Part shown: piece after piece, positions 2,495 to 55,057 of the stretch
How the letters are laid out: every line of letters starts with the position of its first letter
Position numbering within the stretch: the stretch's first letter is position 1
Assembly: GCA_018062705.1 (NCBI GenBank)
Contig: JAGORQ010000001.1
Span: forward strand, 21,624-85,623
From: Candidatus Shapirobacteria bacterium
GTDB taxonomy: Bacteria; Patescibacteriota; Microgenomatia; UBA12405
Length of the DNA: 64,000 nt
Direction of reading: 5' to 3'
Program-made: the position numbers and the translations under genes
Notes under the pieces: generated by a model
Seen by the model: only the letters and a program-made list of their open reading frames with translations
What the model was told of the DNA's origin: nothing
The model's database searches: none

Positions 2495-4264
2495 ATGAAC
2501 AAAAAATTTTACGTTACCACCCCGATTTATTATATAAACGATGTGCCTCATATTGGGCATACCTGCACTACTGTAGTGGCTGATATTTTGGCGCGAACTC
2601 ATCGCCAGGCGGGAGACGATGTGTTTTTTTTGACGGGGACTGATGAACATGGTCAAAAGGTTGCTGAGTGTGCTGAAAAAGAAGGGTTGGACCCTCAAAC
2701 TTACTGCGATAAAATTGCCCCGACTTTTGAAACTGCTTGGAAAGATTTAAACATTAGCTATGATTATTTTATAAGGACAACAAATCCCCAACACGAAGTT
2801 GTGGTGGCAGAATTGTTGCAGAAAATTTACGATGCGGGTGATGTTTACAAGGCGAAGTATGAAGGGTATTACTGTATTGGTTGTGAGAAATTTTTGACCG
2901 AAACTGACTTGGTCGATGGACACTGCCCACTTCATCCACCGGAGAAGACAGTTAAAAAGTCGGAAGAAAACTGGTTTTTTAAATTGTCAAAGTTTGTCCC
3001 ACAAATTATAGAAATTATTGAAAAAGAAAATTATATTTTCCCGGAAGGAAAGCGAGCTGAGGTGTTGGCAAAATTGAAGGGGGGAGTGACTGACATATCA
3101 CTATCTCGAGAAAATGTGTCATGGGGGATTCCCCTACCGTGGGATAAAAAACAAACTGCGTACGTATGGTTTGATGCCTTAATTAATTACTACAGCGCCA
3201 CCCAATTTGTCGAAGGCAAAAAAGACTTTTGGCCAGCAGATTTGCATTTGCTCGGAAAAGAAATTTTGTGGTTCCACACGGTTATTTGGCAAGCAATGTT
3301 GTTGTCGGCCAAAATTGGGTTGCCAAAAAAGACATATACTCATAGTTTTTATATGATCGACGGACAAAAAATGTCTAAAAGTTTGGGTAATGTGATTAGT
3401 CCGAAACAATTAATAGACTTGTTTGGAGTTGATGGCACCAGATATTTAATCGCCCGATCGTTTCCAGCGGAAAACGATGCTGATGTCGGTATTGGTAGAT
3501 TTGTGGAAAGATATAATGCAGATTTGGCGAACAACTTGGGTAATTTGGTGTCGAGAGTGTGTAAACTCGCAATCAAAATCCCCCTGTCTCCACCGAAGGC
3601 GGAGACCTCCCCCTTTGACGAAAGGGGGACTTATTTGGAATTAGTGAATAGTTTAAAACTGGATGAGGCGATAGGGTGGGTATTTGAAAAATTTATTGAT
3701 AAATCAAACAACAGACTAAATGAGGTGATGCCATGGAAATTGGAGGCAGATGACCCAAAAAGAATCGAGGTGTTGACTGAGTGTGTGAACAACTTAAGAC
3801 AGGTGGCATTTTATTTAAAACCAGTCATGCCTGATGTTTCTAAAAAAATAGAAGATTGTTTTGATGGTGAAGTTAAACCACTAGAAAGTTCGCTTTTTCC
3901 GCGGGTGGAAGTTCCCAAAATGGCTCCAAATTTGTTGATAAATAAAATCGTGATTGGGGAGATAAAAAATATAGAAAAATTGCCAGACAAGACAATTCAA
4001 AAAATTACGGTCGATGTAGGAACCAAAGAACTAAAAATTGTTTGTGGAGATTTAAGTCTAAAAGTTGGCGAAAAAGTACCAGTGGCACTGCCGGGATCGA
4101 GGGTGAATGATGTTAATGGCGGCAAGAGAAAAATTAAAAAAGGCAAGGTTCATGGAGTCGAATCGGAAGGAATGCTGTGCTCTGGGCTGGAACTAGGGAA
4201 AAATAAAGATGGTGAATTAATTTATAGAGTTGAGGGAGTGGTGGGGGAAGAGATAAATGATTGA
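2495..4264 (+). CDS. metG: Methionyl-tRNA synthetase with a C-terminal EMAP/Trbp111-like tRNA-binding domain
   Basis: Carries the class I HIGH motif (PHIGH) and KMSKS (KMSKS) plus the LANNLGNL anticodon-domain motif. The C-terminal ~100 aa are OB-fold tRNA-binding. Confidence 0.9.
   Translation: MNKKFYVTTPIYYINDVPHIGHTCTTVVADILARTHRQAGDDVFFLTGTDEHGQKVAECAEKEGLDPQTYCDKIAPTFETAWKDLNISYDYFIRTTNPQHEVVVAELLQKIYDAGDVYKAKYEGYYCIGCEKFLTETDLVDGHCPLHPPEKTVKKSEENWFFKLSKFVPQIIEIIEKENYIFPEGKRAEVLAKLKGGVTDISLSRENVSWGIPLPWDKKQTAYVWFDALINYYSATQFVEGKKDFWPADLHLLGKEILWFHTVIWQAMLLSAKIGLPKKTYTHSFYMIDGQKMSKSLGNVISPKQLIDLFGVDGTRYLIARSFPAENDADVGIGRFVERYNADLANNLGNLVSRVCKLAIKIPLSPPKAETSPFDERGTYLELVNSLKLDEAIGWVFEKFIDKSNNRLNEVMPWKLEADDPKRIEVLTECVNNLRQVAFYLKPVMPDVSKKIEDCFDGEVKPLESSLFPRVEVPKMAPNLLINKIVIGEIKNIEKLPDKTIQKITVDVGTKELKIVCGDLSLKVGEKVPVALPGSRVNDVNGGKRKIKKGKVHGVESEGMLCSGLELGKNKDGELIYRVEGVVGEEIND
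3577..3630. repeat. Family E two-hairpin element, in-frame inside metG (encodes ~IPLSPPKAETSPFDERGT)
   Basis: aatccccctgtc-[gtctccaccgaaggcggagac]-ctccccctttgacgaaagggggac. It has the same architecture and near-identical flanks as the intergenic copies at 43497 and 46373. Confidence 0.5.
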
Positions 4265-4985
4265 TACACATTGCCACCTAAGAAACACTGAGGATATTAA
4301 AATTAAGGGCCTAGAGTTTGCGGTGTTGTCGGCAAGCAATTTGGAAGACTCAAAAGAAAATGTCAAATTACAAATGTCAAATGACAAATTAAAGGCATCG
4401 GTGGGGGTACATCCGCAAGAATTAATTACTAATTACGAATTACTAATTACTAATTTAGAAGAATTACTAAGTCAAAATAAAGAAATTGTTGCGGTAGGGG
4501 AATGTGGACTAGACTTTAGTGCCGAAAACTACGATAGACATTCTCAAGAAATTATGTTTAGGGCGCAAATTTGTTTGGCTTTGAAATATGATAAGCCGTT
4601 GATAATTCATAGTCGGAAGGCGATGGACGAAACGTTGGAAGTGTTGAAAAGTTACAAAAACTTACGAGGAGCAATTCATTGTTATAGTGGGGGAATTAAG
4701 CGAATTAAAAAAGTTTTGGAGCTACCCGGAGAGTGGTTCTTTGGTATCGATGGAAATTTAACCTATGAAGCGGGATTGCAGGAAGTAGTAAAAAATATAC
4801 CGAAGGACAGGCTAGTGCTCGAGACTGACAGTCCAGAGTTGACCCCCATCCCCCATCGGGGTGAAAAAAATTATCCGGAGTATGTAAAATTTATTTATCA
4901 AAAAGTGGCAGAGATTTGGGTGATGAGCTTGAAAGAAACTGAGGAATTGATTGATGGGAATGCGAAAAGAATTTTTGATATTTAG
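4257..4985 (+). CDS. tatD: TatD family metal-dependent DNase/hydrolase
   Basis: Has the MIDTHCHL N-terminus and other TatD His/Glu/Asp motifs. It overlaps the metG end by 8 nt. Confidence 0.8.
   Translation: MIDTHCHLRNTEDIKIKGLEFAVLSASNLEDSKENVKLQMSNDKLKASVGVHPQELITNYELLITNLEELLSQNKEIVAVGECGLDFSAENYDRHSQEIMFRAQICLALKYDKPLIIHSRKAMDETLEVLKSYKNLRGAIHCYSGGIKRIKKVLELPGEWFFGIDGNLTYEAGLQEVVKNIPKDRLVLETDSPELTPIPHRGEKNYPEYVKFIYQKVAEIWVMSLKETEELIDGNAKRIFDI
4421..4471. repeat. (TTACTAAT)n microsatellite copy inside the tatD coding sequence (encodes ELITNYELLITNLEELL)
   Basis: attaattactaattacgaattactaattactaatttagaagaattactaag. The same octamer repeat occurs at 5986 and 41565. Confidence 0.4.
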
Positions 4986-4986
4986 C

Positions 4987-5229
4987 GGGTTTGGGCAAGC
5001 CAAACCCCTACTTTACCTTGGCTGTATCGGGTTTGGGCAAGCCAAACCCCTACTTTACTTTGGCAACTTTGGGTTTGGGCAAGCCAAACCCCTACTTTAC
5101 CTTGGCTGTATCGGGTTTGGGCAAGCCAAACCCCTACTTTACCTTGGCTGTATCGGGTTTGGGCAAGCCAAACCCCTACTTTACCTTGGCTGTATCGGGT
5201 TTGGGCAAGCCAAACCCCTACTTTACTAA
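4987..5229. repeat. Tandem array of ~5.8 copies of a 42-bp REP-like unit (GGGTTTGGGCAAGCCAAACCCCTACTTTACCTTGGCTGTATC), each with a GGGTTTGG/CCAAACCC hairpin
   Basis: Exact 42-nt periodicity starting at 4987, 5029, 5071, 5113, 5155 and 5197. ORF-track entries 4951..5229 and 4991..5257 are translations of this array. Confidence 0.85.
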
Positions 5230-5231
5230 AA

Positions 5232-5711
5232 TTGTATATGCGACTTTTAAACGGTAGGCATACTATTCGACGACAAAAAGTAGATTACACAAAACCAAAT
5301 TGTTTTATGGTGACCATTTGTGCCAATAAATTTGGTTATTATTTCGAAAAATATCCAGAATTAAAAAAGATTATTGAAGATAATTTATTAAAAATTTCTG
5401 GTGACTTTGCCAATACTAGGTTAGGTGAATATGTGGTAATGCCAAACCATATCCACTTTATATTGACAATGAGATATCAAATAAAAAATGTAAGTTTGGG
5501 GAAAATTATTGCCACATTTAAATCGAGAGTCGTAACTGACTGGCTAAAAGTAATAAACGATCAAAAACTTAATTCTTTAGCAAAAATTTGGCAAAGAAAT
5601 TATCACGAACATATTATTAGAAATAAAGATGAGTTTGAAGCTTACACTAAATATATCGTTAATAATCCAAAAAATTGGCTAAATGATTCATACCACGTTT
5701 CGGTAAAGTAG
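5232..5711 (+). CDS. IS200/IS605-family Y1 HuH transposase, REP-associated tyrosine transposase (RAYT)-like
   Basis: HuH motif (PNHIHFIL), N-terminal KPNCFMVTIC motif, and C-terminal YHEHIIRN...YIVNNPKNW typical of TnpA_REP/RAYT. The gene is flanked by REP copies in inverted orientation. Confidence 0.75.
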   Translation: MYMRLLNGRHTIRRQKVDYTKPNCFMVTICANKFGYYFEKYPELKKIIEDNLLKISGDFANTRLGEYVVMPNHIHFILTMRYQIKNVSLGKIIATFKSRVVTDWLKVINDQKLNSLAKIWQRNYHEHIIRNKDEFEAYTKYIVNNPKNWLNDSYHVSVK

Positions 5712-5748
5712 GGGTTTTGCTTGCCCAAACCCGACTTACTTTAAAAAA
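5711..5748. repeat. Single inverted copy of the 42-bp REP unit immediately 3' of RAYT1
   Basis: ggggttttgcttgcccaaacccgacttacttt is the reverse complement of the unit core GGGTTTGGGCAAGCCAAACCCCTAC, with 2 mismatches. Confidence 0.6.
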
Positions 5749-5978
5749 TCATTAACAATGTTTTCCAGTTCTTTTTGAGAAGGGTAGCGGTCGATCAAAG
5801 CGACTTCGTTGTCGATTAGCAAAATAGTGTTGCCTTGGTAGCCTCGTGCGTAAGCTTTGTTGAGATCTTTGGAATACTCGGGTTCGTTTTCAATTTGAAG
5901 ACGTTTGCAGACAACTTCCAAATCAGCAAATAATTTTTTACCTTGAGGCAAGCCTCGATCAAAAAGTTGAATTCGCAT
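5736..5978 (-). CDS. Small glutaredoxin-like (thioredoxin-fold) protein lacking the CxxC motif
   Basis: 80 aa. The beta-alpha-beta pattern (RIQLF...KKLFADLEVVCKRL...GNTILLIDNEVAL...ELENI) resembles Grx/NrdH, but no CxxC is present. Confidence 0.3.
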   Translation of the reverse strand: MRIQLFDRGLPQGKKLFADLEVVCKRLQIENEPEYSKDLNKAYARGYQGNTILLIDNEVALIDRYPSQKELENIVNDFLK

Positions 5979-5985
5979 AAAAAAA

Positions 5986-6015
5986 ATTACTAATTACTAA
6001 TTAATAATTACTAAT
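5986..6015. repeat. (TTACTAAT)n microsatellite immediately upstream of the ATG of the minus-strand gene 5736..5978
   Basis: attactaattactaattaataattactaat. Confidence 0.4.
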
Positions 6016-6022
6016 GAGAAAC

Positions 6023-6784
6023 TTAAGTTAGTATAGCAGTAGGTGGTGAAGTTAGATTTTCAAGTAAGCAGGCGATGGTGAGTGGCCCAATACAGCCATA
6101 GGTTGGGGTGATATAGCCAGCTACTTCTGAAACTTCGGTAAAATTTACATCACCACTGGCAGCATCAATCACTATGGCACCGGGTTTGATATAGTCTTTG
6201 GTCACGAGGCCTTTGACGCCGGTGGCAGAAATAAGAAGATCGGCTCCCCTGCTGATTTCTGAGATATTTTTGGTGAATTCATTGCAAAGTGTAACTTGAA
6301 TTTTTTTGGATAATAAAAATTTTTCCAAAGGTTTGCCAATCAAATTTGAATCGTTGATAATTACCGCAGTTTTTACCGTAGGGAGGAGTTGGTATTCAAT
6401 TAGAAGATGAACAATACCTTTAACTACTGCTGGGGTGTAGGGTGAATTTGGAGTAAGCCCATCAACATCTTTCGATTGAACTATGGATGATAAAATTATA
6501 TTTTTGTCAAGATTACTTGGTAGCGGAAGTTGGACAAAAAATCCGGTAACTTGGGGATTATTATTTAGATTATTAATTAGAGAAATGATTTCTTGTTCAG
6601 AAATTGTTTGGGGCAAGGAGTGGATAACACAGTCCTGACCAATCTCTTGGCACTTTTGTTGTTTAAGAGACACATACTTGAGACTGGCAGGATTGTCCCC
6701 CACCAAGATTATGTGGAGTGTGCCTCGAGGCTGGAGATTGGAAATTATTTTATTGGCAAGTGTTTTACCATCAAGAAGTACCAT
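6023..6784 (-). CDS. folD: Bifunctional methylenetetrahydrofolate dehydrogenase/cyclohydrolase
   Basis: LVGDNPASLKYVSLKQQKC, a GxGxxG NAD(P) site and a PGAIVIDAA-type C-terminus. Confidence 0.85.
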   Translation of the reverse strand: MVLLDGKTLANKIISNLQPRGTLHIILVGDNPASLKYVSLKQQKCQEIGQDCVIHSLPQTISEQEIISLINNLNNNPQVTGFFVQLPLPSNLDKNIILSSIVQSKDVDGLTPNSPYTPAVVKGIVHLLIEYQLLPTVKTAVIINDSNLIGKPLEKFLLSKKIQVTLCNEFTKNISEISRGADLLISATGVKGLVTKDYIKPGAIVIDAASGDVNFTEVSEVAGYITPTYGCIGPLTIACLLENLTSPPTAILT

Positions 6785-7487: not shown

Positions 7488-7515
7488 TTAGAGACGCGCC
7501 ATGGTGCGTCTCTAC
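7488..7515. repeat. Family B palindrome (TTAGAGACGCGCC ATG GTGCGTCTCTAC) just 3' of the map stop
   Basis: Perfect inverted repeat. The outer GAGACGC/GCGTCTC stems are shared with 7 other copies. Confidence 0.6.
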
Positions 7516-7525
7516 GGAGAAGATA

Positions 7526-8305: not shown

Positions 8306-8402
8306 ATCGTCATTGCGAGGAGTCTTATCATACGATCCCCAAAGGGGACAGGCTACACAATCCCAACGAGATTGCCACGACCTTCGGCCTCGCAATGACG
8401 TT
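8306..8402. repeat. Family C composite element (TCGTCATTGCGAGG ... CAATCCCAACGAGATTGC ... CCTCGCAATGACG) between the deacetylase stop and the map start
   Basis: 13-bp terminal inverted repeats enclose a CCAACGAGATTGC module that is shared with 38199, 54715 and 57268. Confidence 0.5.
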
Positions 8403-12296: not shown

Positions 12297-12324
12297 GTAG
12301 AGACGGGGCATGCCCCGTCTCTAC
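12297..12324. repeat. Family B palindrome (GTAGAGACGGGGCATGCCCCGTCTCTAC), intergenic
   Basis: Perfect 28-nt palindrome. Confidence 0.6.
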
Positions 12325-15531: not shown

Positions 15532-15559
15532 GTAGAGACGTTGCGCGCAACGTCTCTAC
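15532..15559. repeat. Family B palindrome (GTAGAGACGTTGCGCGCAACGTCTCTAC) between convergent genes; possible bidirectional terminator
   Basis: Perfect palindrome 12 nt after the DEAD helicase stop, followed by an A-run on + and a T-rich stretch on -. Confidence 0.55.
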
Positions 15560-20876: not shown

Positions 20877-21533
20877 ATGAGAATACTAGTCGTCGAAGAT
20901 GAACACCGAATTGCCAACACCATTAAAAAAGGGTTGGAACTAGAACATTATGCTGTTGATGTGGCCTATGATGGAATTGAAGGTTATGATTTGGCCAGTA
21001 GTGGCGACCATGATTTGATTATCTTAGATTTAATGTTGCCCGGAAAAGACGGTCTAAAAATTTGTGCCGAGCTTAGGGCTAATAAAATTCAAACACCAAT
21101 TTTGATTTTGACGGCCAAAGGCCAAACACAAGACAAGGTGAAGGGGTTAAACATGGGAGCAGACGATTATTTGACAAAACCATTTGCGTTTGAAGAATTG
21201 TTGGCTCGAATCAAGGCGTTGTCGAGAAGACCAAAAACTGCGATTAATCAGATGATTGAAGTGGCTGATTTGAAAATTAATACCACAACTTATGAAGTTA
21301 AAAATGGTAATAAAATAATTGAACTATCGAAGAAAGAATATGCATTGCTCGAGTGTCTGGCCCGGCATGCCAATAAAATTTTGAGTAAAGATCAAATTAT
21401 GAATCAGGTGTGGAACTATGAGGCAGATATTTTACCAAATACGGTGGAAGTTTATATTAAAAAATTGAGAAATAAATTGGGGGAGAAAGTTATTAAAACA
21501 GTGAGAGGGTTTGGATATAAACTAGAGAGTTAA
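20877..21533 (+). CDS. OmpR/PhoB-family response regulator
   Basis: REC domain (D-D-K residues, ILDLMLPG) plus a C-terminal winged helix (VRGFGYKL). Confidence 0.85.
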   Translation: MRILVVEDEHRIANTIKKGLELEHYAVDVAYDGIEGYDLASSGDHDLIILDLMLPGKDGLKICAELRANKIQTPILILTAKGQTQDKVKGLNMGADDYLTKPFAFEELLARIKALSRRPKTAINQMIEVADLKINTTTYEVKNGNKIIELSKKEYALLECLARHANKILSKDQIMNQVWNYEADILPNTVEVYIKKLRNKLGEKVIKTVRGFGYKLES

Positions 21534-21534
21534 A

Positions 21535-21573
21535 TAGATTTAAGATTTAAGATGTATGATTTAAGAATAGAAC
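21535..21573. repeat. Family D element (TAGATTTAAGATTTAAGATGTATGATTTAAGAATAGAAC) between the RR stop and the HK start
   Basis: Shares more than 80% identity with copies at 23821, 24551, 32913, 39432 and 45654. Confidence 0.6.
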
Positions 21574-21588
21574 ATCAACAATCAAATA

Positions 21589-22599
21589 ATGTTTGAGAAA
21601 ACGAGACTAAAATTAACCGGCTGGTACTTGATGATTATTATGGTGGTGTCATTATCTTTTTCGGGCGTAATTTATAGAATTGTAACTCAAGAAATAGATA
21701 GATTTGCTCAGGCGCAACGATCAAGAACCGAAAGAAGGATGATGGTGTTTCCCGGAGGACCTACCGTGGTGTTTTTGGATACTGATTTGGTAGCAGAGAC
21801 AAAAAAGAGATTAGTAATTGAACTAATGTCGGTCAATGTACTTGTATTGATAATTTCTGGATGGTTAGCTTATTTGTTGTCTGGTAAGACATTGAAGCCA
21901 ATTCAGGAAATGGTGGAGGAACAAAATAGATTTATTTCTGATGCGTCACATGAACTTAAAACTCCCCTAACCTCCCTAAAAACGGCAATGGAAGTGAGTT
22001 TGCGCGATAAAAATTTTTCTTTAAACGAAGCAAAAGAGCAAATAAAGGAAAATATTGAAGAGGTAAATAAATTACAATCACTGTCGGAGGGGTTGTTGGA
22101 GTTATCAAGATTTGAACAACCAAAACAAATTAATGATTTGGAAAAAATAGTGTTGCCTAAATCAATTGCCAGTGTGGTTAAAACTTTGAAACCAATTGCC
22201 ACAAAAAAAGAAGTGAAAATAATTAACTTAATAAAAGGTGGTGGTGAAATAAAAGGCAACGAGGCGGAACTGAACAAGCTATGGACAATATTAATTGAAA
22301 ACGCGATTAAATATACTAATAATACTGGCGAAGTGAAATTGGAATTGGGTGAGACCAAAAATCATTGGCAAGTAATTATCAGTGATAATGGTGTGGGAAT
22401 CGCTCCAGCGGATGTGCCACATATTTTTGATCGATTTTATCGGGCGGACAGTGCCAGAACCAAAGCAGGAAATGATGGCTACGGACTAGGGCTAGCAATT
22501 GCTAAAAAAATAATTGAATCACACAATGCTAAAGTAGAAGTGCAAAGTGAAATTAATAAAGGTACCAGCTTTAAGCTGACATTCAGGAAAGAGATTTAA
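21589..22599 (+). CDS. Sensor histidine kinase (2 TM, HisKA, HATPase_c)
   Basis: H-box SHELKTPL and the N, G1, G2 boxes (DNGVGI, GYGLGLAI). Confidence 0.85.
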   Translation: MFEKTRLKLTGWYLMIIMVVSLSFSGVIYRIVTQEIDRFAQAQRSRTERRMMVFPGGPTVVFLDTDLVAETKKRLVIELMSVNVLVLIISGWLAYLLSGKTLKPIQEMVEEQNRFISDASHELKTPLTSLKTAMEVSLRDKNFSLNEAKEQIKENIEEVNKLQSLSEGLLELSRFEQPKQINDLEKIVLPKSIASVVKTLKPIATKKEVKIINLIKGGGEIKGNEAELNKLWTILIENAIKYTNNTGEVKLELGETKNHWQVIISDNGVGIAPADVPHIFDRFYRADSARTKAGNDGYGLGLAIAKKIIESHNAKVEVQSEINKGTSFKLTFRKEI

Positions 22600-23817: not shown

Positions 23818-23820
23818 AAA

Positions 23821-23877
23821 TAGATTTAAGAAATAAGATTTAAGATTCTTGCTGAAGCAAACAAGTATGAATAAGAC
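23821..23877. repeat. Family D element upstream of and overlapping the ABC ATPase start
   Basis: tagatttaagaaataagatttaagattcttgc...aagtatgaataagacaa. Confidence 0.55.
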
Positions 23878-24571
23878 AATAAAAAAAATAGTAATTGAGA
23901 CGAGGAATTTGTCGAAGGTGTATACCGTCGGAGATGTGAAGACGGTGGCACTCGATAAGGTGTCGTTTAACATTGAGCAAGGTGAATTTGTGGCGATAAT
24001 GGGACCATCTGGTTCGGGCAAATCAACTTTGATGCATATTATTGGAGCTCTGGACAAACCAACTGGCGGTCAATATATCTTGGATGGAAGTAATGTAGAA
24101 AATCTGAGTGATGATGAGCTGGCGGAAATTAGAAATAAAAAAATTGGGTTTATTTTTCAGGCGTTTAATTTATTACCCAGGACCACCACAATGAAAAATG
24201 TGATGCTACCAATGAAATATGCTGGGTTGTCGGAAGAAAAACAAAAAGCAACAGCAGAAAAGTTTTTGAAAATGGTGGGATTAGGAGACAGACTAAAACA
24301 TACCAGTAATCAGTTGTCCGGAGGACAACAACAGCGAGTGGCAATTGCTCGGGCACTAGTACTGGACCCGGCAATTATTTTGGCAGATGAGCCAACAGGA
24401 AATATTGCTTCGGCACAGGCGGATGAAATAATGGAGATTTTTGAAAAATTAAATGATGAAGGTCATACCATTGTGATGATTACTCACGAACCAGATATAG
24501 CCAATCATGCTAAAAGGATTATTCATATAAAGGATGGGCAAATATACAAAGATTTAAGAAATAAGATTTAA
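23867..24571 (+). CDS. ABC transporter ATP-binding protein (MacB/LolD-like)
   Basis: Walker A (GPSGSGKST), signature LSGGQQQRV, Walker B (ILADEPTGN). The last 8 codons are encoded by family D copy D3. Confidence 0.85.
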
Positions 24572-24590
24572 GATGTATGAATAAAACAAA
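24551..24590. repeat. Family D element that supplies the C-terminus (KDLRNKI) and TAA stop of the ABC ATPase and precedes the permease ATG
   Basis: gatttaagaaataagatttaagatgtatgaataaaacaaa. Confidence 0.55.
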
Positions 24591-24593
24591 CAC

Positions 24594-25820
24594 ATGAAAG
24601 AATTAATTAATCAATTTGTTGAAAGTTTGGGGACACTGACTCTGAATAAAACCAGGACAGGATTGGCGATTTTGGGAATTGTGATCGGTATTGGTAGTGT
24701 GATTGCGCTGGTGTCGCTCGGTGAGGCGACCCAAAAATCAATCCAAAATCAGATTGAGTCCTTGGGGTCAAACTTATTGACGGTTAATCCTGGCGCAGTC
24801 AGTTCGGGAGGAGTGCGGGGGGCACAGGGTGGTGTGACTACCTTAACTTTGGAAGATGCTAAAGCGATAATTACATCGAGCACTGTGACGACAATTAAAA
24901 CAGTGTCGCCAGAGTTTTCCAGAAGAACCCAGGTGGTAACAACCGGTAAAAATACCAACACCCAAATAATTGGAGTTAGCCCGGAATATGCGAATGTACA
25001 TAAACTGTCGGTGGAAACGGGTAGCTTTGTGTCGCAAACAGAAGTTGACGGCATGAGTAAGGTGGCAGTACTCGGGCCACAGGTTGTAACTGATTTGTTT
25101 GGAGATGGCGCTAATCCAGTTGGTCAGACAATAAGAATCAGTGGACAAACTTTTACGGTTATTGGAGTGACAGTGTCAAAAGGAGGCAGTGGTTTTCAAA
25201 ATCAAGACGATATTATTTACGTACCAATAACTACCGCCCAAAAACAATTGTTTGGAGTAAATTATTTGAGCTCAATTGGACTAGAAGCGAAAACGGCCGA
25301 GGTGATGACCCAAGCCCAAGACGAGGTAGGTTACTTATTATTATCGAGACATAAATTTAATGATCCGAGTCAGGCTGATTTTTCAATTTTTTCCCAACAG
25401 GATATTTTGAATACCGCTTCATCAACTACCGGGACGTTTACTTCGTTATTGTCGGGAATAGCGGCCATTTCATTACTAGTAGGCGGAATTGGGATAATGA
25501 ATATAATGCTAGTGACCGTGACGGAGAGAACTAGAGAAATTGGACTGCGTAAAGCCTTGGGAGCCAAAAAGAAAGTGATAACCAGTCAATTTTTGACTGA
25601 GTCAGTTATTCTGACATTTACTGGCGGAATTATTGGAGTGGCAATGGGGATACTGGCATCGTACATAATTTCACTCTTAACCGGCTCGTTATTTGTAGTA
25701 TCGGTAAATTCGATAGTGTTGGCATTTGGAGTGTCGGCGGGAATTGGAGTAGTGTTTGGCTGGTACCCAGCCCAAAAAGCTGCCAATATGCAACCGATAG
25801 AAGCGTTGAGATATGAATAG
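24594..25820 (+). CDS. ABC transporter permease, MacB/FtsX-like (4 TM with a large periplasmic domain)
   Basis: MacB_PCD-like periplasmic region and the FtsX C-terminal TM bundle. Confidence 0.8.
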   Translation: MKELINQFVESLGTLTLNKTRTGLAILGIVIGIGSVIALVSLGEATQKSIQNQIESLGSNLLTVNPGAVSSGGVRGAQGGVTTLTLEDAKAIITSSTVTTIKTVSPEFSRRTQVVTTGKNTNTQIIGVSPEYANVHKLSVETGSFVSQTEVDGMSKVAVLGPQVVTDLFGDGANPVGQTIRISGQTFTVIGVTVSKGGSGFQNQDDIIYVPITTAQKQLFGVNYLSSIGLEAKTAEVMTQAQDEVGYLLLSRHKFNDPSQADFSIFSQQDILNTASSTTGTFTSLLSGIAAISLLVGGIGIMNIMLVTVTERTREIGLRKALGAKKKVITSQFLTESVILTFTGGIIGVAMGILASYIISLLTGSLFVVSVNSIVLAFGVSAGIGVVFGWYPAQKAANMQPIEALRYE

Positions 25821-29503: not shown

Positions 29504-30397
29504 ATCGTGGTGGAAGATTACTTTGCCAAGAGCTAGAGTCATGGGACGGTTTTTCATGGAGTCAAGAATTATTTTATTTAAATTATCGCGGTACTCAGCG
29601 GTGTCGGCAGACTCAAAATCGGGAATTAGTTCGGGGGAATTTTTTTGAAGATACTCGTAAAGTCGGGTTTTGATTTTGGAACTTTGATTGAGATGTTCAA
29701 ACCAAACTTCGGAAACTCCGGCATGCTGGAGCGCATCGAGCAATTCATTAATGGCTTTTTTATTATTGACAAAATGTGGCAGAATTGGACCGACAAAGGC
29801 GTAAGTGGAAACACCATTATCGTGTAATTGTTTTAGTGCTTCAATGCGAGCAGAAATAGGTGGTGCTAGAGGTTCGAGAAAGCGAGCCACTTGGTCGTCG
29901 AGTGTGGTGACAGTAAAACCAACTTGAACTTTTTTTAATTTTTTTAAAATATCAATATCTTGAGTAACCAAGGGTGATTTTGTTTGAATGCCAATTGCTC
30001 CTTCATAACCAAAATCAACAAAAACTTGAAGACATTGGCGGGTGATATGGTATTTGGCTTCGAGACCGGTGTAGGGGTCGGTGACCGAACTAAAAAAGAT
30101 AAAACCAAAATCTTTTGATGATTTAATTTTATTTTGGTGTGTAGAGACGCCAGGCCTGGCGTCTCTACGAGACAGCTTGTTTAATTCATTTTTTAATAAT
30201 TCAGGCGCGTTGGTTTTGACATCTAAATAACTCCCCCACTCTTCATCGGGGTGATGCCAGCGGGCTATTTGGGCGGCATAGCAGTACGTGCAACCGAGCT
30301 GGCAACCGCCGTAGGAATTAACTACCCAATCGGCACCAGGCAGACCGGATTTGGTGAGGATTGTTTTGGCGGTAATTTCGTTAATTTTGAGGAGCAT
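29486..30397 (-). CDS. Radical SAM protein of the spore-photoproduct-lyase/DNA-photolyase-like (SplB) type, carrying an in-frame family B palindrome insert
   Basis: The CxxxCxxC cluster (CQLGCTYC) near the N-terminus and the overall architecture fit SplB-like rSAM. Residues SRRDARPGVST are encoded by the palindrome at 30141..30168. Confidence 0.55.
   Translation of the reverse strand: MLLKINEITAKTILTKSGLPGADWVVNSYGGCQLGCTYCYAAQIARWHHPDEEWGSYLDVKTNAPELLKNELNKLSRRDARPGVSTHQNKIKSSKDFGFIFFSSVTDPYTGLEAKYHITRQCLQVFVDFGYEGAIGIQTKSPLVTQDIDILKKLKKVQVGFTVTTLDDQVARFLEPLAPPISARIEALKQLHDNGVSTYAFVGPILPHFVNNKKAINELLDALQHAGVSEVWFEHLNQSSKIKTRLYEYLQKNSPELIPDFESADTAEYRDNLNKIILDSMKNRPMTLALGKVIFHHDLPKKR
30141..30168. 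repeat. Family B palindrome (GTAGAGACGCCAGGCCTGGCGTCTCTAC) in-frame inside the radical SAM gene
   Basis: Perfect 28-nt palindrome. The minus-strand reading frame passes through it without a stop. Confidence 0.6.
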
Positions 30398-32908: not shown

Positions 32909-32912
32909 AAAA

Positions 32913-32955
32913 TAGATTTAAGATTTAAGATGTAAGATTTATGAATAAGACAAAG
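32913..32955. repeat. Family D element immediately after the deacetylase stop
   Basis: tagatttaagatttaagatgtaagatttatgaataagacaaag. Confidence 0.55.
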
Positions 32956-32970
32956 ATGTTAAAATAAATT

Positions 32971-33114
32971 ATGATATTAAGAAATATTTCTCCGCTAATG
33001 TCTTTGATTTTTGGATTTTTGATTTTGATTAATCCAAAATTGTTGTCGGTGCTGGTGGCAATTTATTTGATTGTTACTGGGCTAATTGGATTGGGTGTGC
33101 TGAGGCTTGGATAA
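32971..33114 (+). CDS. Small (47 aa) two-TM hydrophobic protein, not in the ORF track (below its length cutoff)
   Basis: ATG at 32971, TAA at 33112..33114, translation MILRNISPLMSLIFGFLILINPKLLSVLVAIYLIVTGLIGLGVLRLG. Its 3' end overlaps the convergent gene 33074..34072. Confidence 0.3.
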   Translation: MILRNISPLMSLIFGFLILINPKLLSVLVAIYLIVTGLIGLGVLRLG

Positions 33115-38198: not shown

Positions 38199-38346
38199 CG
38201 TCATTGCGATCCGCCAGTTGGCGGAGTGGCAATCCCAACGAGATTGCTTCGTCCCCTTCGGCTACGCTCAGGGTCCTCGCAATGACCCTTCGACTTCGCT
38301 CACAATCCTCGTTATAACCCTTCGACTTCGCTCAGGGTTATAACGT
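38199..38346. repeat. Family C composite element in a divergent promoter region; includes a duplicated CTTCGACTTCGCTCA(G/C) submodule
   Basis: gtcattgcga...ggcaatcccaacgagattgcttcg...cctcgcaatgacc, then two copies of cttcgacttcgctca. Confidence 0.5.
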
Positions 38347-38351
38347 ATTAT

Positions 38352-39614
38352 ATGGTTATGAAAATATGGTGGATTTTGCTAATTTGTCTGGGAATTAGAC
38401 TTATAGGAATTAATCAATCGTTGTGGCTAGATGAGGCAATATCGGCCAATGTAGCCAAGAATTTTTCCTACCAAGAAATACTGACAAAATTTAGTCCGGG
38501 AGATTTTCACCCGCCAGGATATTATCTGATGTTGAAAACTTGGGGAAGTATTTTTGGTTATTCGGAAATTAGCTTAAGACTAACGTCGGTAATATTTAGT
38601 TTAATAACGATTTATGTGGTTTATTTACTGGGAGGATCGGCTGGTGCAATGCTGGTTGGATTTAATCCCCTGTTAGTGTATTACTCGCAAGAAGTGAGAA
38701 TGTACTCGATGGTGACCATGTGGCTAACTTTGGCGATCTATTTTTTGATAAAAGAAAAATATTGGCTAGTGGGACTATTTTTTGGATTGGCGTTTGGGAC
38801 GTTTTACGGGTCGGTATTTTTGATGGTGGCGGTGTTTATCTATTTAATTGTTAATAAAAAATATAAACCGGCAGGAATCGTAACAATAGTTCCATTGATA
38901 TTCTTGCTAATTATATGGCCATTGATGAGTCAACAACTTCAAAATTCAAAGGTGATGTTGGCCACAGTGTCGGGCTGGAGCCTTGTGCTAGGAAAAGTAA
39001 ATCTGAAAAATTTATTGTTGATTCCGATGAAATTTACGTCGGGGAGAATCAGCTTTTATCCAAAGATTATTTATTATGTTTTGGCGGGAGGATGGTCTAT
39101 ATTTGTGTTTTTTAAAGTGCTTAGTGCTAAGTTCAAAGTGCAAAGCAAAATCTATAGTTTTTTGTTTTGGACTACGTTGGCAATCGGGGTGGTGTTTTCG
39201 ATATTTACCCCTATGTTTGAGTATTTTAGATTTTTGTACTTGATACCAATTATGGCGCTAGCAATAGGGAAAAATAAACTGATAGCCGGAGGGTTTTTGG
39301 CGTGGAGTTTGGTGTATGTACTAAACCCGAGTTTTTATCGAGAAGATTGGAAGAGTGTGGTGGCAGAGTTATCGAAAGACCAACCAGTTTACATGATCAA
39401 ATCATTTGAAGATCCGGTGAGTTATTACAATCTAGATTTAAGATATAAGACGTATGATTTAAGAATAGAACCGAAAGAAAATAGAATAACGGTAATACCC
39501 TATGGTGAGGAGATACATGGAGTGAACCATGTTAAATTGATGGAAAAACAGGGTTATAAAATGGTTGACCAAAAAAATTATCGAGGATTGGTGAGTGAAT
39601 CTTGGAGTCGGTGA
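38352..39614 (+). CDS. GT-C fold glycosyltransferase (GT39/GT83, PMT/ArnT-like) membrane protein
   Basis: DE motif in the first periplasmic loop (LWLDEAISANV) and about 11 TM helices. A family D repeat lies in-frame near the C-terminus. Confidence 0.6.
   Translation: MVMKIWWILLICLGIRLIGINQSLWLDEAISANVAKNFSYQEILTKFSPGDFHPPGYYLMLKTWGSIFGYSEISLRLTSVIFSLITIYVVYLLGGSAGAMLVGFNPLLVYYSQEVRMYSMVTMWLTLAIYFLIKEKYWLVGLFFGLAFGTFYGSVFLMVAVFIYLIVNKKYKPAGIVTIVPLIFLLIIWPLMSQQLQNSKVMLATVSGWSLVLGKVNLKNLLLIPMKFTSGRISFYPKIIYYVLAGGWSIFVFFKVLSAKFKVQSKIYSFLFWTTLAIGVVFSIFTPMFEYFRFLYLIPIMALAIGKNKLIAGGFLAWSLVYVLNPSFYREDWKSVVAELSKDQPVYMIKSFEDPVSYYNLDLRYKTYDLRIEPKENRITVIPYGEEIHGVNHVKLMEKQGYKMVDQKNYRGLVSESWSR
39432..39472. 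repeat. Family D element in-frame inside the GT39 gene (encodes LDLRYKTYDLRIEP)
   Basis: tagatttaagatataagacgtatgatttaagaatagaacc. Confidence 0.55.
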
Positions 39615-41557: not shown

Positions 41558-41564
41558 GTGTTTT

Positions 41565-41598
41565 TAATTACTAATTACTAATTACTAATTACTAATTT
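41565..41598. repeat. (TTACTAAT)n microsatellite in the divergent promoter region between the rluB-like gene and the nuclease gene
   Basis: taattactaattactaattactaattactaattt. Confidence 0.4.
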
Positions 41599-43496: not shown

Positions 43497-43549
43497 ATCC
43501 CTCTGTCCTGCGGTCGCCGGACCTCTCCCTTTGAAGAAAGGGAGAAATA
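43497..43549. repeat. Family E two-hairpin element immediately 5' of the exonuclease ATG
   Basis: aatccctctgtc-[ctgcggtcgccggac]-ctctccctttgaagaaagggagaaataac. Confidence 0.55.
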
Positions 43550-45415: not shown

Positions 45416-45653
45416 TGGAGACTTCTTGGAGTTCCCAAAATAAATTGTCAGTGTTGAGACTTAACCGAAAAAAAGTCTGATTGGCAGTGACAGAGAAAAT
45501 GTGGAACAGAGTCTGCCCGCGACGGATAGTATGGTGGAGACCGATTTGAGAAACGGTGTAATCTACTCCACGCCAAAAAAATTTACGCGGACCAACCCGA
45601 TTGGTGGCGGAGTCGAAACTAGAGATGACAGAGATGGGAATTTTTAACTGCAT
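45408..45653 (-). CDS. Small hypothetical protein overlapping the dinB start by 8 nt
   Basis: 81-aa ORF translationally coupled to dinB. Confidence 0.35.
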   Translation of the reverse strand: MQLKIPISVISSFDSATNRVGPRKFFWRGVDYTVSQIGLHHTIRRGQTLFHIFSVTANQTFFRLSLNTDNLFWELQEVSND

Positions 45654-45698
45654 GATTTAAGAAGTAAGATTTAAGATGTATGAATAAAACAAAAAAAC
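45654..45698. repeat. Family D element abutting the start codon of the minus-strand small gene
   Basis: gatttaagaagtaagatttaagatgtatgaataaaacaaaaaaac. Confidence 0.55.
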
Positions 45699-45705
45699 AT
45701 AGGTC

Positions 45706-45735
45706 ATTCCCGCGGAGGCGGGAATCTAATTTTTT
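45706..45735 (+). terminator. 8-bp GC hairpin (ATTCCCGC GGAG GCGGGAAT) plus T-run; terminator-like with no obvious upstream + gene
   Basis: A similar hairpin attcccgccttcgcgggaat occurs at 7389..7408. Confidence 0.3.
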
Positions 45736-46372: not shown

Positions 46373-46421
46373 AATCCCTCTGTCAGCGTTGCTGACATCT
46401 CCCTTTGAAGAAAGGGAGAAC
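46373..46421. repeat. Family E two-hairpin element immediately 3' of the RRM gene stop
   Basis: aatccctctgtc-[agcgttgctgacat]-ctccctttgaagaaagggagaacc. Confidence 0.55.
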
Positions 46422-46475: not shown

Positions 46476-46501
46476 AGAGACGCATTGCAATGCGTCTCTA
46501 C
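46476..46501. repeat. Family B palindrome (AGAGACGCATTGCAATGCGTCTCTAC) overlapping the RAYT2 stop codon
   Basis: Perfect palindrome. The minus-strand TAG of RAYT2 lies inside it. Confidence 0.6.
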
Positions 46502-47040
46502 AATTTGGAAAATAATCTGTCCTTTTGCCAGTTTTTGGGGTTGTTTCTGATGTAGTATTTGATTTGAGTTAACCGTTTTTCGTCGTGAATAATTTCGTCA
46601 TAAAAACGAGGTTGCCAGGCGAAATAAATATTATGTTTTTTGCAGATGCGTTTGACGGCACCTTTGAAGGATTTGATGGTTTGGGAAATTGTTTGGATTG
46701 ATTTGGAATTTATATCTTGATAAAAATCTGGGTGGTTCCGATGGCTATGGATAAATATTGGCGTTGGGGAACTTTCGTGTAGAGACGCATGGCAATGCGT
46801 CTCTACAGGGATATCCCGAATGGTGATTAGCAGGTGAACATGGTTGGGCATGACCACCCAGGGGTTGATAATTAAAGATTTTCGAATAGAGATGGTTTTG
46901 ATTAATTCATCAACAGCAATTTGACCCCTATCCGATAATTCCATTTTTCCGTTGATAATTTTGCCAAAGAAATTGTTATGGTTGTAGGTGCAGATGGTGA
47001 TGAAGTAAAAGCCAGGTGTGGAGTAGTCCCAACCATTCAA
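46498..47040 (-). CDS. IS200/IS605-family HuH Y1 transposase (RAYT-like), second copy, carrying an in-frame family B palindrome
   Basis: YFITICTYN N-terminal motif, HuH (PNHVHLLIT), C-terminal YYIRNNPKNW. Residues VETHCHASLH are encoded by the palindrome at 46779..46806. Confidence 0.7.
   Translation of the reverse strand: MNGWDYSTPGFYFITICTYNHNNFFGKIINGKMELSDRGQIAVDELIKTISIRKSLIINPWVVMPNHVHLLITIRDIPVETHCHASLHESSPTPIFIHSHRNHPDFYQDINSKSIQTISQTIKSFKGAVKRICKKHNIYFAWQPRFYDEIIHDEKRLTQIKYYIRNNPKNWQKDRLFSKL
46779..46806. repeat. Family B palindrome (GTAGAGACGCATGGCAATGCGTCTCTAC) in-frame inside RAYT2
   Basis: Differs by 1 nt from the copy at 46476. Confidence 0.6.
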
Positions 47041-53496: not shown

Positions 53497-53522
53497 AGAG
53501 ACGTCATATATGACGTCTCTAC
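53497..53522. repeat. Family B palindrome (AGAGACGTCATATATGACGTCTCTAC)
   Basis: Perfect palindrome, intergenic. Confidence 0.6.
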
Positions 53523-53613
53523 AAAAATATTCTAGAGTCTTCGCTAAAACAAAACAAAACAAACAGAAGAGTTTAAATTGAAGATAAATACCTAGGTTTA
53601 GTTTTATGCTGAA

Positions 53614-53638
53614 AGAGACGCACATAGTGCGTCTCTAC
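53614..53638. repeat. Family B palindrome (AGAGACGCACATAGTGCGTCTCTAC) 4 nt from the stop of the minus-strand kinase gene
   Basis: Near-perfect palindrome with one central unpaired nt. Second copy 92 nt from B7. Confidence 0.6.
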
Positions 53639-54678: not shown

Positions 54679-54714
54679 ATGGGGTTATTTTATAACATTT
54701 ACTTTTTATTTGGA

Positions 54715-54772
54715 CTGTTCCAATTTCAACTAGATTGCCACCCTTTCGACTTTGCTCAGGATCGCAATAACG
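54715..54772. repeat. Family C module copy (CAATTTCAACTAGATTGCC...TTTCGACTTTGCTCAGGATCGCAATAACG) immediately upstream of the MBL hydrolase gene
   Basis: About 85% identical to the copy at 57268, including the adjacent start-codon-proximal sequence. Confidence 0.5.
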
Positions 54773-55057
54773 TATGTATATGAATATTGATTAACAAAGT
54801 GTAATATTAATTATGAAAGGAAAACATAAAAGGATTAGAAGAAAAGAACTAAAAGACACTACTTCGATTGGCGAATGGTCAAGAATGTTGCACAAATGGT
54901 GGAAATTGAGTGTGCTAAATAAAATTGAATTCAAGAAGAAACGGGAAGACATACAATAGTACCCGTCTTTGTTTTCTAGCTATTTTATTGATGGTGATTG
55001 ATGCCATGTCGATATCAGGAGTTTAATTAAAATCTGTGTGTTAATTGGGACGGAGCA

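What the first reader, a model, noticed from the sequence alone, without database searches (positions are those of the whole stretch)
4987..5748. 42-bp REP tandem array (5.8 units) directly upstream of RAYT1 with an inverted unit downstream
The array is strictly periodic at 42 bp with a 21-nt imperfect hairpin per unit (GGGTTTGG GCAAGC CAAACCC). It starts 2 nt after the tatD stop and ends 2 nt before the RAYT1 ATG. Such BIME-like clusters are classical in gamma-proteobacteria but unexpected in a reduced genome. The ORF-track entries over it (4951..5229, 4991..5257) are translation artefacts.
Basis: seen in the sequence. Interest (0 to 1): 0.55.

Follow-up and report, generated by a model that had tools for sequence, protein, structure and literature searches.

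The report
Amplified REP hairpins beside a RAYT gene
A small domesticated transposase gene (RAYT) in a Candidatus Shapirobacteria (CPR) genome is bracketed by its hairpin repeats (REPs), and the upstream repeat has grown from one copy to six head-to-tail copies; this is a known kind of element seen here in an unusual host and arrangement.

Summary
Window 4986..5226 holds 5.7 copies of a 42-bp unit. Each unit has a perfect 8-bp stem with a 5-nt loop, then CTACTTTAC, then a 12-nt linker. One inverted copy lies at 5703..5732.

On the minus strand each unit reads GTAAAGTAG plus hairpin, the canonical GTAG-tagged REP. The gene between the arms (5238..5711) is an intact Y1 HUH enzyme. Its best sequence and fold match is E. 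coli TnpA-REP (4ER8), and the HUH motif, the catalytic Tyr and the GTAG-contacting residues are all conserved.

So this is a REPtron. It is not a BIME, because all six units point the same way. The source is a Candidatus Shapirobacteria (CPR) MAG.

At least five distinct related contigs carry the same tatD-REP-RAYT-iREP-thioredoxin-like locus, each with one REP per side. The array is therefore a lineage-specific +210 bp (5 x 42) amplification. Hairpin stems co-vary across relatives.

The amplification mechanism is unresolved: replication slippage or unequal recombination versus RAYT-catalysed cut-and-rejoin. Copy number cannot be checked without reads.

The same window holds a second RAYT with eight "double-foot" REPs. 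REP/RAYT systems are thus not exceptional in this lineage. Verdict: a new member of a known kind, of modest interest.

The parts
4257..4985 (+). tatD (TatD-family DNase), upstream neighbour; its stop TAG (4983-4985) is 1 nt from the first hairpin
   Evidence: Pfam PF01026, 208 bits; ORF list; stop position
4986..5226 (-). Head-to-tail array of six GTAG-type REP units, period 42 bp. The strand given is the one on which each unit reads 5'-GTAAAGTAG-hairpin-3'
   Evidence: TRF; exact 21-mer hits; GTAG+hairpin scan; unit table
4987..5016 (-). REP core 1 (21-nt hairpin + CTACTTTAC), followed by linker CTTGGCTGTATC (5017-5028)
5029..5058 (-). REP core 2, followed by the variant linker TTTGGCAACTTT (5059-5070)
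5071..5100 (-). REP core 3, followed by linker CTTGGCTGTATC (5101-5112)
5113..5142 (-). REP core 4, followed by linker CTTGGCTGTATC (5143-5154)
5155..5184 (-). REP core 5, followed by linker CTTGGCTGTATC (5185-5196)
5197..5226 (-). REP core 6. It is followed by a flank, TAAAATTGTATATG, that resembles the sequence after the single REP in the orthologous loci (similarity judged by eye, not aligned)
5238..5711 (+). RAYT1 / TnpA-REP-like Y1 HUH enzyme, 157 aa. HUH = H71-I-H73, catalytic Y139, N143, and GTAG-contact motif W118 Q119 E124 H125 R128
   Evidence: Pfam Y1_Tnp 28.4 bits, cutoff 23; NCBIfam REP_Tyr_transpos 67.5 bits, cutoff 80; phmmer alignment to 4ER8; invariant columns; AF2 model pLDDT 89, best fold hit 4ER8 with TM 0.65
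5703..5732 (+). Downstream REP in opposite orientation: GTAAAGTAG + GGGTTTTGCTTGCCCAAACCC. One stem mismatch. Its GTAG contains the RAYT stop codon
5736..5978 (-). Convergent 80-aa thioredoxin-like gene, a conserved right-hand neighbour of the REPtron in the relatives
   Evidence: ORF; weak NCBIfam redox_disulf_2 hit; synteny

Best explanation
The locus is a REPtron: a single-copy, vertically inherited Y1 HUH 'domesticated transposase' gene (RAYT / TnpA-REP) bracketed by its cognate GTAG-tagged REP hairpins in inverted orientation. The host is a Candidatus Shapirobacteria (Patescibacteria/CPR) genome.

The ancestral state is one 30-nt REP on each side. The REP is an 8-bp stem with a GGG/CCC foot, a 5-nt loop, and GTAG extended to GTAAAGTAG. 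In this genome the left REP plus a 12-nt linker has been reiterated head-to-tail to six copies (+210 bp).

Shown:
- the anatomy of the locus
- intact catalytic and GTAG-binding residues
- a covariation-supported hairpin
- synteny, with single-copy REPs in the relatives.

Inferred:
- RAYT1 binds the GTAG-hairpin strand as single-stranded DNA and can cut and rejoin next to it, by analogy with E. coli, S. maltophilia and Marinomonas TnpA-REP.
- The recent expansion (units 3-5 identical, unit 1 the same) most likely arose by replication slippage or unequal recombination between the identical 30-nt cores. An earlier RAYT-mediated or recombinational event probably created the first head-to-tail pair, which would explain the divergent linker of unit 2.
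- As RNA, the six hairpins sit in the tatD-to-RAYT read-through transcript. They probably protect the tatD 3' end and throttle RAYT expression.
For: GTAG directly 5' of a perfect 8-bp hairpin at all seven copies; 19 GTAG-hairpin sites were found in the window versus 1.9 in shuffles.

Hairpin covariation in 12 REPs from the window and relatives: 95.8% of cells are paired, 4 of 8 pairs show double changes, the GGG/CCC foot and GTAG are invariant, 0 of 500 shuffles reach this, and all slid registers are far lower.

RAYT identity:
- Pfam Y1_Tnp is above its cutoff.
- The best NCBIfam hit is REP_Tyr_transpos.
- The only significant PDB sequence hit is 4ER8. E. coli W94, Q95, E100, H101, R104, Y115 and N119 align to W118, Q119, E124, H125, R128, Y139 and N143 (residue roles from PMC6006769).
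- HUH, Y, N and P are invariant in 20 homologues.
- The AF2 model (pLDDT 89) best matches 4ER8, with TM 0.65 and rmsd 3.3 A versus 6-12 A for IS200/IS605 TnpA.

Synteny: tatD-REP-RAYT-iREP-80aa gene in L008, L009/L010/L011, L012, L013, L016 and L017. RAYT identity is 60-66%. Each has a single REP per side and a 43-51 nt spacer where the RAYT start is intact (79 nt in L009, whose start is truncated), against 252 nt here.

The same 30-mer or hairpin occurs at unrelated loci in other low-GC, likely CPR contigs, including GTAG-inside doublets.

Literature:
- REPtron concept and tandem amplification models (PMC3333891).
- A perfect 8-bp-stem REP directly preceded by GTAG, and REPs concentrated next to tnpA in Marinomonas (PMC8266576).
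- A canonical REP with three G-C pairs at the foot in subclass 2.4 (PMC6006769).
Against: - NCBIfam's curated equivalog cutoff is not reached (67.5 versus 80 bits).
- Within the 64-kb window REP1 is found only at the RAYT1 locus. A dispersed REP1 family in this genome is not shown.
- Head-to-tail REP arrangements are reported as rare (PMC3733652).
- All six differences between unit 2 and the other units lie in the 12-nt linker and none in the 30-nt core (P = 1.8e-4 if mutations were uniform). Simple duplication plus drift does not explain this.
- GC skew is strongly positive over the whole window. The + strand is therefore probably the lagging-strand template. On that strand the array reads as iREP, the orientation that TnpA-REP did not bind in vitro (PMC8266576). 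This argues against RAYT acting on the array at the fork.
- No biochemical or read-level evidence is available.
Confidence: 0.8

Rival explanations
1. Same REPtron, but RAYT1 itself built the array. Cleavage next to a REP, priming or strand transfer, and re-ligation would add REP+linker units one at a time. These are the 'rolling-circle-like' BIME amplification models of Ton-Hoang et al.
For: E. coli TnpA-REP assembles tandem BIME copies in vitro, and linker sequence variability is a hallmark of such products (PMC3333891). The linker of unit 2 differs at 6 of 12 positions while all cores are identical. Marinomonas REPs are concentrated next to their tnpA (PMC8266576). RAYT1 is intact.
Against: On the inferred lagging-strand template the array is in the iREP orientation. 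No CT dinucleotide, the usual cleavage site, lies outside the hairpin on the GTAG strand of the unit (sequence). Both linker variants are exactly 12 nt, and units 1, 3, 4 and 5 are identical; ordinary slippage or unequal crossing-over explains this more simply. None of the orthologous REPtrons has amplified.
Confidence: 0.3
2. The copy number, or the whole array, is an assembly artefact: expansion or collapse of a short tandem repeat in a metagenome-assembled genome.
For: The source is a MAG contig. Units 3-5 are identical. The stretch from the unit-2 variant linker to the unique right flank is about 157 nt, longer than a 150-nt read. All relatives have one unit.
Against: The array has an internal variant unit and unique flanks on both sides, and it is only 241 bp. 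The extra length is exactly 5 x 42 relative to the relatives. Assemblers usually collapse such repeats rather than expand them. No reads were available to test this.
Confidence: 0.1
3. The hairpin array is kept for a host function unrelated to transposition. It could act as an mRNA 3'-end stabiliser or translation brake for tatD, as an insulator that limits read-through into RAYT, or as a phased protein-binding site (42 bp is about four helical turns).
For: The REP abuts the tatD stop codon in every orthologue, and the downstream REP fills the 24-nt gap between two convergent stops. No promoter-like site lies between tatD and RAYT1. Six stable hairpins are predicted. Such roles have been proposed for REPs (abstract and discussion of PMC3733652).
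Against: One REP suffices in all relatives, so six copies are not needed. There is no U-tract terminator and no Rfam family. The RNA fold z-score is only -2.15.
Confidence: 0.15
4. An autonomous IS200/IS605-type insertion sequence, with the hairpins serving as its left and right ends.
For: Y1_Tnp domain; subterminal hairpins on both sides.
Against: The two arms are inverted, whereas IS200/IS605 ends carry hairpins on the same strand (general knowledge of IS608; PMC6006769 background). The gene sits at the same chromosomal locus in relatives only 60-66% identical. The fold and the motif region match TnpA-REP better than TnpA-IS200.
Confidence: 0.03

Closest known systems
E. coli K-12 REPtron (tnpAREP/yafM flanked by BIMEs; structure 4ER8)
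   Same: A single-copy Y1 HUH gene bracketed by GTAG-tagged REPs. The GTAG-contact residues and catalytic Tyr are conserved, and 4ER8 is the best sequence and fold match. Tandem reiteration of REP-containing units next to the gene, with locus-specific copy number, also occurs (PMC3333891).
   Different: E. coli REPs have long bulged stems, and the repeated unit is a BIME (REP + inverted REP). Here the stem is a short perfect 8-bp helix, and the repeated unit holds one REP, all in one orientation. Protein identity is only about 20%.
Group 3 REPtrons: S. maltophilia REPtron Sm and Marinomonas REPtron Mb (PMC8266576)
   Same: REPSm is a perfect 8-bp palindrome directly preceded by GTAG, as here. 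Marinomonas REPs are concentrated beside their tnpA, which was read as local multiplication.
   Different: The loop is 5 nt here versus 3-4 nt. RAYT1 keeps E124 at the position of E. coli E100, whereas subclass 2.5/2.7 proteins have D there (PMC6006769). The host is a CPR bacterium rather than a gamma-proteobacterium.
TnpA-Y1 subclass 2.4 REPtrons (PMC6006769)
   Same: The canonical REP has three consecutive G-C pairs at the stem foot, and these are invariant here. The second RAYT in the window shows the two other hallmarks of the subclass: 'double-foot' REPs and a REP inserted in-frame in its own gene between HuH and Y.
   Different: RAYT1 and its orthologues lack the in-gene REP insertion. 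Assignment to the subclass was not tested by phylogeny.
Tandem REPIN clusters next to RAYT genes in P. fluorescens SBW25 (PMC3116915) and 'singletons reiterated in tandem' (PMC3733652)
   Same: Highly ordered tandem repeats of nearly identical REP-containing units, including flanking sequence, located beside the cognate RAYT.
   Different: SBW25 units are REPINs (inverted doublets of 71-110 bp). Here the unit is a 42-bp singleton. [quoted passage not shown]

Membership tests
GTAG-type REP | Conserved 5' GT[AG]G tetranucleotide at the foot of a stem-loop | tested here: met
   GTAG directly abuts the stem in all 7 copies and in all 12 aligned relatives, where the column is invariant.
GTAG-type REP | Short palindromic stem-loop (20-40 nt) conserved as a structure | tested here: met
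   8-bp stem with 5-nt loop. 95.8% of cells are paired, 4 of 8 pairs have compensatory changes, and 0 of 500 shuffles reach this. DNA fold is -8 to -9 kcal/mol per unit.
GTAG-type REP | Many copies dispersed in extragenic space of the genome | tested here: inconclusive
   Within the 64-kb window all 7 copies are at the RAYT1 locus. The rest of the genome was not available. In related contigs the same REP occurs at unrelated loci (L001, L002, L003, L006, L007).
RAYT / TnpA-REP (REPtron) | Y1 HUH fold with an HUH motif and a single catalytic Tyr | tested here: met
   PF01797 at 28.4 bits against a cutoff of 23. H71/H73, Y139, N143 and P144 are invariant. The AF2 model's top PDB hit is 4ER8.
RAYT / TnpA-REP (REPtron) | RAYT-specific motif that contacts GTAG (E. 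coli W94, Q95, E100, H101, R104) | tested here: met
   IWQRNYHEHIIRN aligns to IWQPRFWEHAIRN of 4ER8. Residue roles are as stated in PMC6006769.
RAYT / TnpA-REP (REPtron) | Gene flanked by cognate REPs in inverted orientation | tested here: met
   Arms of 31-37 nt, 92-97% complementary. The same holds in all orthologous loci.
RAYT / TnpA-REP (REPtron) | Single copy, immobile, vertically inherited (behaves like a housekeeping gene) | tested here: met
   Same tatD/RAYT/80-aa-gene neighbourhood in at least five distinct contigs with 60-66% identical RAYTs, plus frameshifted L008. Only one RAYT1-type gene is in the window.
RAYT / TnpA-REP (REPtron) | Score above NCBIfam's curated equivalog cutoff (NF047646) | tested here: not met
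   67.5 bits versus a cutoff of 80. It is still by far the best NCBIfam hit; IS200 scores 18.6 bits.
RAYT / TnpA-REP (REPtron) | Sequence-specific binding and cleavage of single-stranded REP DNA | not testable with these tools
   Requires a biochemical assay (CST/EMSA as in PMC8266576).
BIME | Unit made of two REPs in opposite orientation separated by a linker | tested here: not met
   All six hairpin+CTAC units are on the same strand at a strict 42-bp spacing. The 12-nt linker is too short to hold a REP.
REPIN | Inverted REP doublet able to form one long hairpin | tested here: not met
   There is no inverted partner within the array. GTAG-inside doublets of this REP do exist in relatives L003 and L006.
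IS200/IS605 insertion sequence | Left- and right-end hairpins on the same strand; multi-copy and mobile as a unit | tested here: not met
   The arms are inverted and the locus is syntenic across relatives.
CRISPR array | Direct repeats separated by unique spacers; cas genes nearby | tested here: not met
   The inter-hairpin segments are identical in 4 of the 5 units that are followed by another unit. The neighbours are tatD, RAYT, a thioredoxin-like gene and folD.

The most novel reading that the evidence does not exclude
The six-unit head-to-tail array may be the footprint of recent, ongoing RAYT activity in an ultra-small CPR genome. In that case a minimal REPtron (157-aa enzyme, 30-nt REP) is actively multiplying single REPs in cis by a cut-prime-rejoin reaction. 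Such a system would be a naturally simple one for solving how REPs disseminate. The array might additionally autoregulate the enzyme by sequestering it or by blocking read-through.
Probability: 0.2. Interest if true: 0.5.

Novelty: new member of a known kind. Interest (0 to 1): 0.3.

Why it matters
REP/RAYT systems have been characterised almost entirely in Proteobacteria, and published surveys list eight phyla without CPR (PMC3733652). My literature searches found no paper linking RAYTs or REPs to Patescibacteria, although JGI's annotation already names an orthologue 'RayT'.

This lineage has very small genomes. The same REPtron nevertheless sits at one locus across deep divergence, and 64 kb holds two RAYTs with their own REP families. 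This supports the view that RAYTs are maintained, host-integrated genes rather than transient parasites.

The contrast of one REP in the relatives with six here gives a dated, local amplification event that could be followed in population metagenomes. Practically, it warns annotators that the two ORFs over the array are spurious and that the array may break or distort assemblies.

Tried and rejected
1. Exact look-ups of the RAYT1 protein, with both start codons and as P0001, to recover the rest of the source contig: not on record. REP1 copy number in the whole genome could therefore not be counted.
2. Translation of the array searched against 5.8 billion proteins, to find other arrays or a real repeat protein: nothing at E <= 0.01.
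3. Rfam on the locus (E <= 1) and on the whole window (gathering threshold): no family.
4. Sigma-70 promoter and intrinsic-terminator scans of 4200..6100: no terminator, and promoter-like sites at the chance level.
5. Origin of the 12-nt linker: no other copy in the window and none in the orthologous loci. The weak resemblance of both linker variants to half of the hairpin (TTGGC) is too short to score.
6. CRISPR, coding-repeat and IS200/IS605 readings were rejected; see the membership tests.
7. The genome-collection and metagenome scans with the REP found only single or double copies per contig, and no other tandem array.

Full report

Yes. Tandem Repeats Finder reports one strong array at 4986..5226: period 42, 5.7 copies, 93% matches, no indels, score 440. 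It is by far the highest-scoring repeat in the window.

The 21-mer GGGTTTGGGCAAGCCAAACCC occurs exactly at 4987, 5029, 5071, 5113, 5155 and 5197 on the + strand. It occurs once, with one mismatch, on the - strand at 5712..5732, and nowhere else in 64 kb. None is expected in 100 shuffles.

Each unit is a 21-nt hairpin, then CTACTTTAC, then a 12-nt linker.

The first hairpin starts one base after the tatD stop (TAG, 4983-4985). The last 30-nt core ends at 5226. That is 5 nt before an alternative TTG and 11 nt before the ATG at 5238, which is the start the orthologues support.

The downstream inverted copy (5703..5732) contains the stop codon of the transposase-like gene. It ends 3 nt before the stop of a convergent 80-aa gene.

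**2. What are the units?**

On the minus strand every unit reads 5'-GTAAAGTAG-GGGTTTGG-CTTGC-CCAAACCC-3'. The downstream copy reads the same way on the plus strand. A GTAG tetranucleotide at the foot of a short stem-loop is the defining signature of the GTAG super-family of REPs (PMC3733652; PMC6006769).

A scan for GTAG followed by a hairpin of at least 7 bp finds 19 sites in the window, against 1.9 in shuffles.

I aligned 12 distinct copies in the GTAG orientation, taken from the window and from related contigs, and scored the 8-bp helix:
- 95.8% of cells are paired.
- Four of the eight pairs show compensatory double changes (T-A to C-G, G-C to A-T, and others).
- The GGG/CCC foot and GTAG are invariant.
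- 0 of 500 shuffles reach the observed values, and all slid registers are far worse.

The hairpin is therefore a conserved structure, not just a conserved sequence.

**3. What is the gene?**

ORF 5238..5711 (157 aa) matches Pfam Y1_Tnp above its gathering score (28.4 versus 23 bits). Its best NCBIfam hit is 'REP-associated tyrosine transposase' at 67.5 bits. That is below the curated 80-bit cutoff, but IS200 scores only 18.6 bits.

The only significant PDB sequence hit is 4ER8, E. coli TnpA-REP bound to a REP. The alignment puts E. coli W94, Q95, E100, H101, R104, Y115 and N119 opposite W118, Q119, E124, H125, R128, Y139 and N143. According to PMC6006769 these are the conserved W, the GTAG-contacting residues, the catalytic tyrosine, and the asparagine essential in vivo.

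In an alignment of 20 homologues, MPNH-x-H (HUH = H71/H73), W118, Y139, N143 and P144 are invariant.

An AlphaFold model (pLDDT 89, pTM 0.83) has 4ER8 as its best PDB match: TM 0.65, rmsd 3.3 A over 140 columns. IS200/IS605 transposases follow with rmsd of 6-12 A.

The enzyme looks intact and RAYT-like.

**4. Source and relatives**

The protein is 100% identical to MBP9817148.1, 'transposase [Candidatus Shapirobacteria bacterium]', on a 137-kb contig. The lineage is Patescibacteria group, Microgenomates.

Proteins 60-66% identical are encoded in L009/L010/L011 (one on a 739-kb contig), L012, L013, L016 and L017. L008 carries a frameshifted orthologue. In every case the order is metG (where the contig reaches that far), tatD, REP, RAYT, inverted REP, then the same 80-aa thioredoxin-like gene on the opposite strand.

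All of these loci have exactly one upstream unit (hairpin + CTACTTTAC) abutting the tatD stop. All have one downstream GTAAAGTAG + hairpin overlapping the RAYT stop. The tatD-RAYT spacer is 43-51 nt where the RAYT start is intact (79 nt in L009, whose start is truncated), against 252 nt in the window.

The array is therefore a lineage-specific gain of 5 x 42 = 210 bp on an otherwise conserved, vertically inherited locus. This is the behaviour described for RAYTs: single copy, immobile, housekeeping-like (PMC8266576 introduction; PMC6006769).

The same REP also occurs away from any RAYT:
- Two copies in the Shapirobacteria MAG JAPLYY01, one of them in-frame inside a 381-aa oxidoreductase-like ORF.
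- Copies in L003, L006 and L007. In L003 and L006 these form GTAG-inside doublets with a second REP type, located after tsf and frr in L006.

**5. Classification**

RAYT plus inverted flanking REPs is a REPtron (PMC3333891; PMC3733652). The array is not a BIME or a REPIN, because those are pairs of oppositely oriented REPs. Here six single REPs point the same way.

[quoted passage not shown] Ordered tandem clusters next to each RAYT are known in P. fluorescens SBW25. REPs concentrated beside tnpA are known in Marinomonas.

A perfect 8-bp stem directly preceded by GTAG resembles the S. maltophilia group-3 REP. The three G-C pairs at the foot, and the retained Glu at the E100 position, fit subclass 2.4 of PMC6006769. 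That assignment is an inference and was not tested by phylogeny.

**6. How did the array arise and what does it do?**

Units 1, 3, 4 and 5 are identical over all 42 nt. Unit 2 differs at six positions, all of them in the 12-nt linker and none in the 30-nt core (P = 1.8e-4 if mutations were uniform). The sequence after the last core looks like the flank found after the single REP in the relatives, as judged by eye.

The identical units argue for recent slippage or unequal recombination between the 30-nt cores. The linker-only divergence of unit 2 suggests one of three things: an older, separately formed junction; conversion between cores; or selection on the cores.

RAYT-catalysed amplification, as in the models of Ton-Hoang et al., is the main alternative. 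Several observations weigh against it:
- GC skew is +0.09 to +0.21 across the whole window. The + strand is therefore probably the lagging-strand template, and on that strand the array is in the iREP orientation that TnpA-REP did not bind in vitro.
- On the GTAG strand there is no CT dinucleotide outside the hairpin.
- No orthologous REPtron has amplified.

I put host slippage or unequal recombination somewhat ahead of RAYT catalysis for the recent expansion. This remains unresolved.

Functionally, no promoter-like site or U-tract terminator lies between tatD and RAYT1. RAYT1 is therefore probably expressed by read-through across six stable hairpins. These could protect the tatD 3' end and damp RAYT expression, as proposed in general for REPtrons (PMC3733652 discussion). 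This step is inferred.

**7. The ORFs over the array**

ORFs 4951..5229 and 4991..5257 consist only of the 14-codon repeat. They have no homologue among 5.8 billion proteins, and they are absent from all orthologous loci.

**8. Is it unexpected or novel?**

Besides the orthologous REPtrons in relatives, the window itself has a second RAYT (46498..47040, minus strand, 25% identical).

Eight 'double-foot' REPs (GTAGAGACG-palindrome-CGTCTCTAC, with co-varying inner stems) are scattered over the 64 kb. One of them lies in-frame inside that RAYT gene, between the HUH and Tyr motifs. This is exactly the peculiarity described for subclass 2.4.

My searches of the held literature found no paper connecting RAYTs or REPs with CPR/Patescibacteria. 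However, JGI already labels an orthologue 'REP element-mobilizing transposase RayT'.

The finding is a new member, and a phylum extension, of a known kind, with an uncommon head-to-tail amplification.

**9. Limits**

Copy number cannot be verified without reads. The stretch from the unit-2 variant to the right flank is about 157 nt, so short-read assemblies could mis-count by a unit or more.

The rest of the source genome could not be retrieved. Whether REP1 is dispersed in this genome therefore remains unknown.

Noticed in passing
window 46498..47040 (-), plus 7490-7516, 12297-12324, 15532-15559, 30141-30168, 46476-46502, 46779-46806, 53497-53523, 53614-53638: A second RAYT gene (25% identical to RAYT1) with its own 'double-foot' REP family, GTAGAGACG-palindrome-CGTCTCTAC. 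There are eight copies in 64 kb with co-varying inner stems. One is inserted in-frame in the RAYT gene between HUH and Tyr, encoding VETHCHASLH. This matches the subclass 2.4 description in PMC6006769.
   Followed up: partly
window 4422-4456, 5983-6017, 41564-41598: Runs of the heptamer TAATTAC (4-5 copies). The first lies in-frame inside tatD, encoding ITNYELLITN, and a similar ITNYELQITN is present in the L008 TatD. The second sits between the thioredoxin-like gene and folD. The nature of these runs is unknown.
   Followed up: no
window 21532-21596, 23818-23882, 24546-24610, 32910-32974, 39430-39494, 45649-45713: Six dispersed copies of a ~65-nt AT-rich element built on AGATTTA/AAGATTT heptamers, 60-78% identical to the reference copy.
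   Followed up: no
window 8358-8382, 38230-38349, 54704-54773, 57255-57324: Another repeated element: CAATCCCAACGAGATTGC ... CCTTCGACTTCGCTCAGG ... CGCAATGAC. It includes a 3 x 32-bp tandem at 38254-38349, just upstream of a membrane-protein gene.
   Followed up: no
window 3604-3630, 43520-43546, 46394-46420: A hairpin element, GACCTCTCCCTTTGAAGAAAGGGAGAA. One copy lies inside metG and one lies just downstream of RAYT2's neighbouring gene.
   Followed up: no
window 1-64000: GC skew is strongly and uniformly positive (+0.09 to +0.21), so the whole window lies on one replichore with the + strand G-rich. There are no tRNA or Rfam hits at gathering score in 64 kb.
   Followed up: partly
L001 3449-3478 (JAPLYY010000068.1, Candidatus Shapirobacteria MAG): The same 30-nt REP lies in-frame (RVWASQTPTL) inside a 381-aa FAD/NAD-binding oxidoreductase-like ORF. 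This is a possible intragenic REP insertion.
   Followed up: no
L008 1755-2218: The orthologous RAYT in this metagenome contig is interrupted by a stop or frameshift around 2030. It is either a pseudogene or a sequencing error. Its flanking REPs are intact.
   Followed up: no
L006 3441-3498 and 4097-4146; L003 ~735-809: In other low-GC, likely CPR contigs the REP1 hairpin forms GTAG-inside (tail-to-tail) doublets with a second REP type (GGGCGCGG.../GGGCGCAG...). In L006 these sit in the spacers after tsf and frr, i.e. REPIN-like heterodimers.
   Followed up: partly
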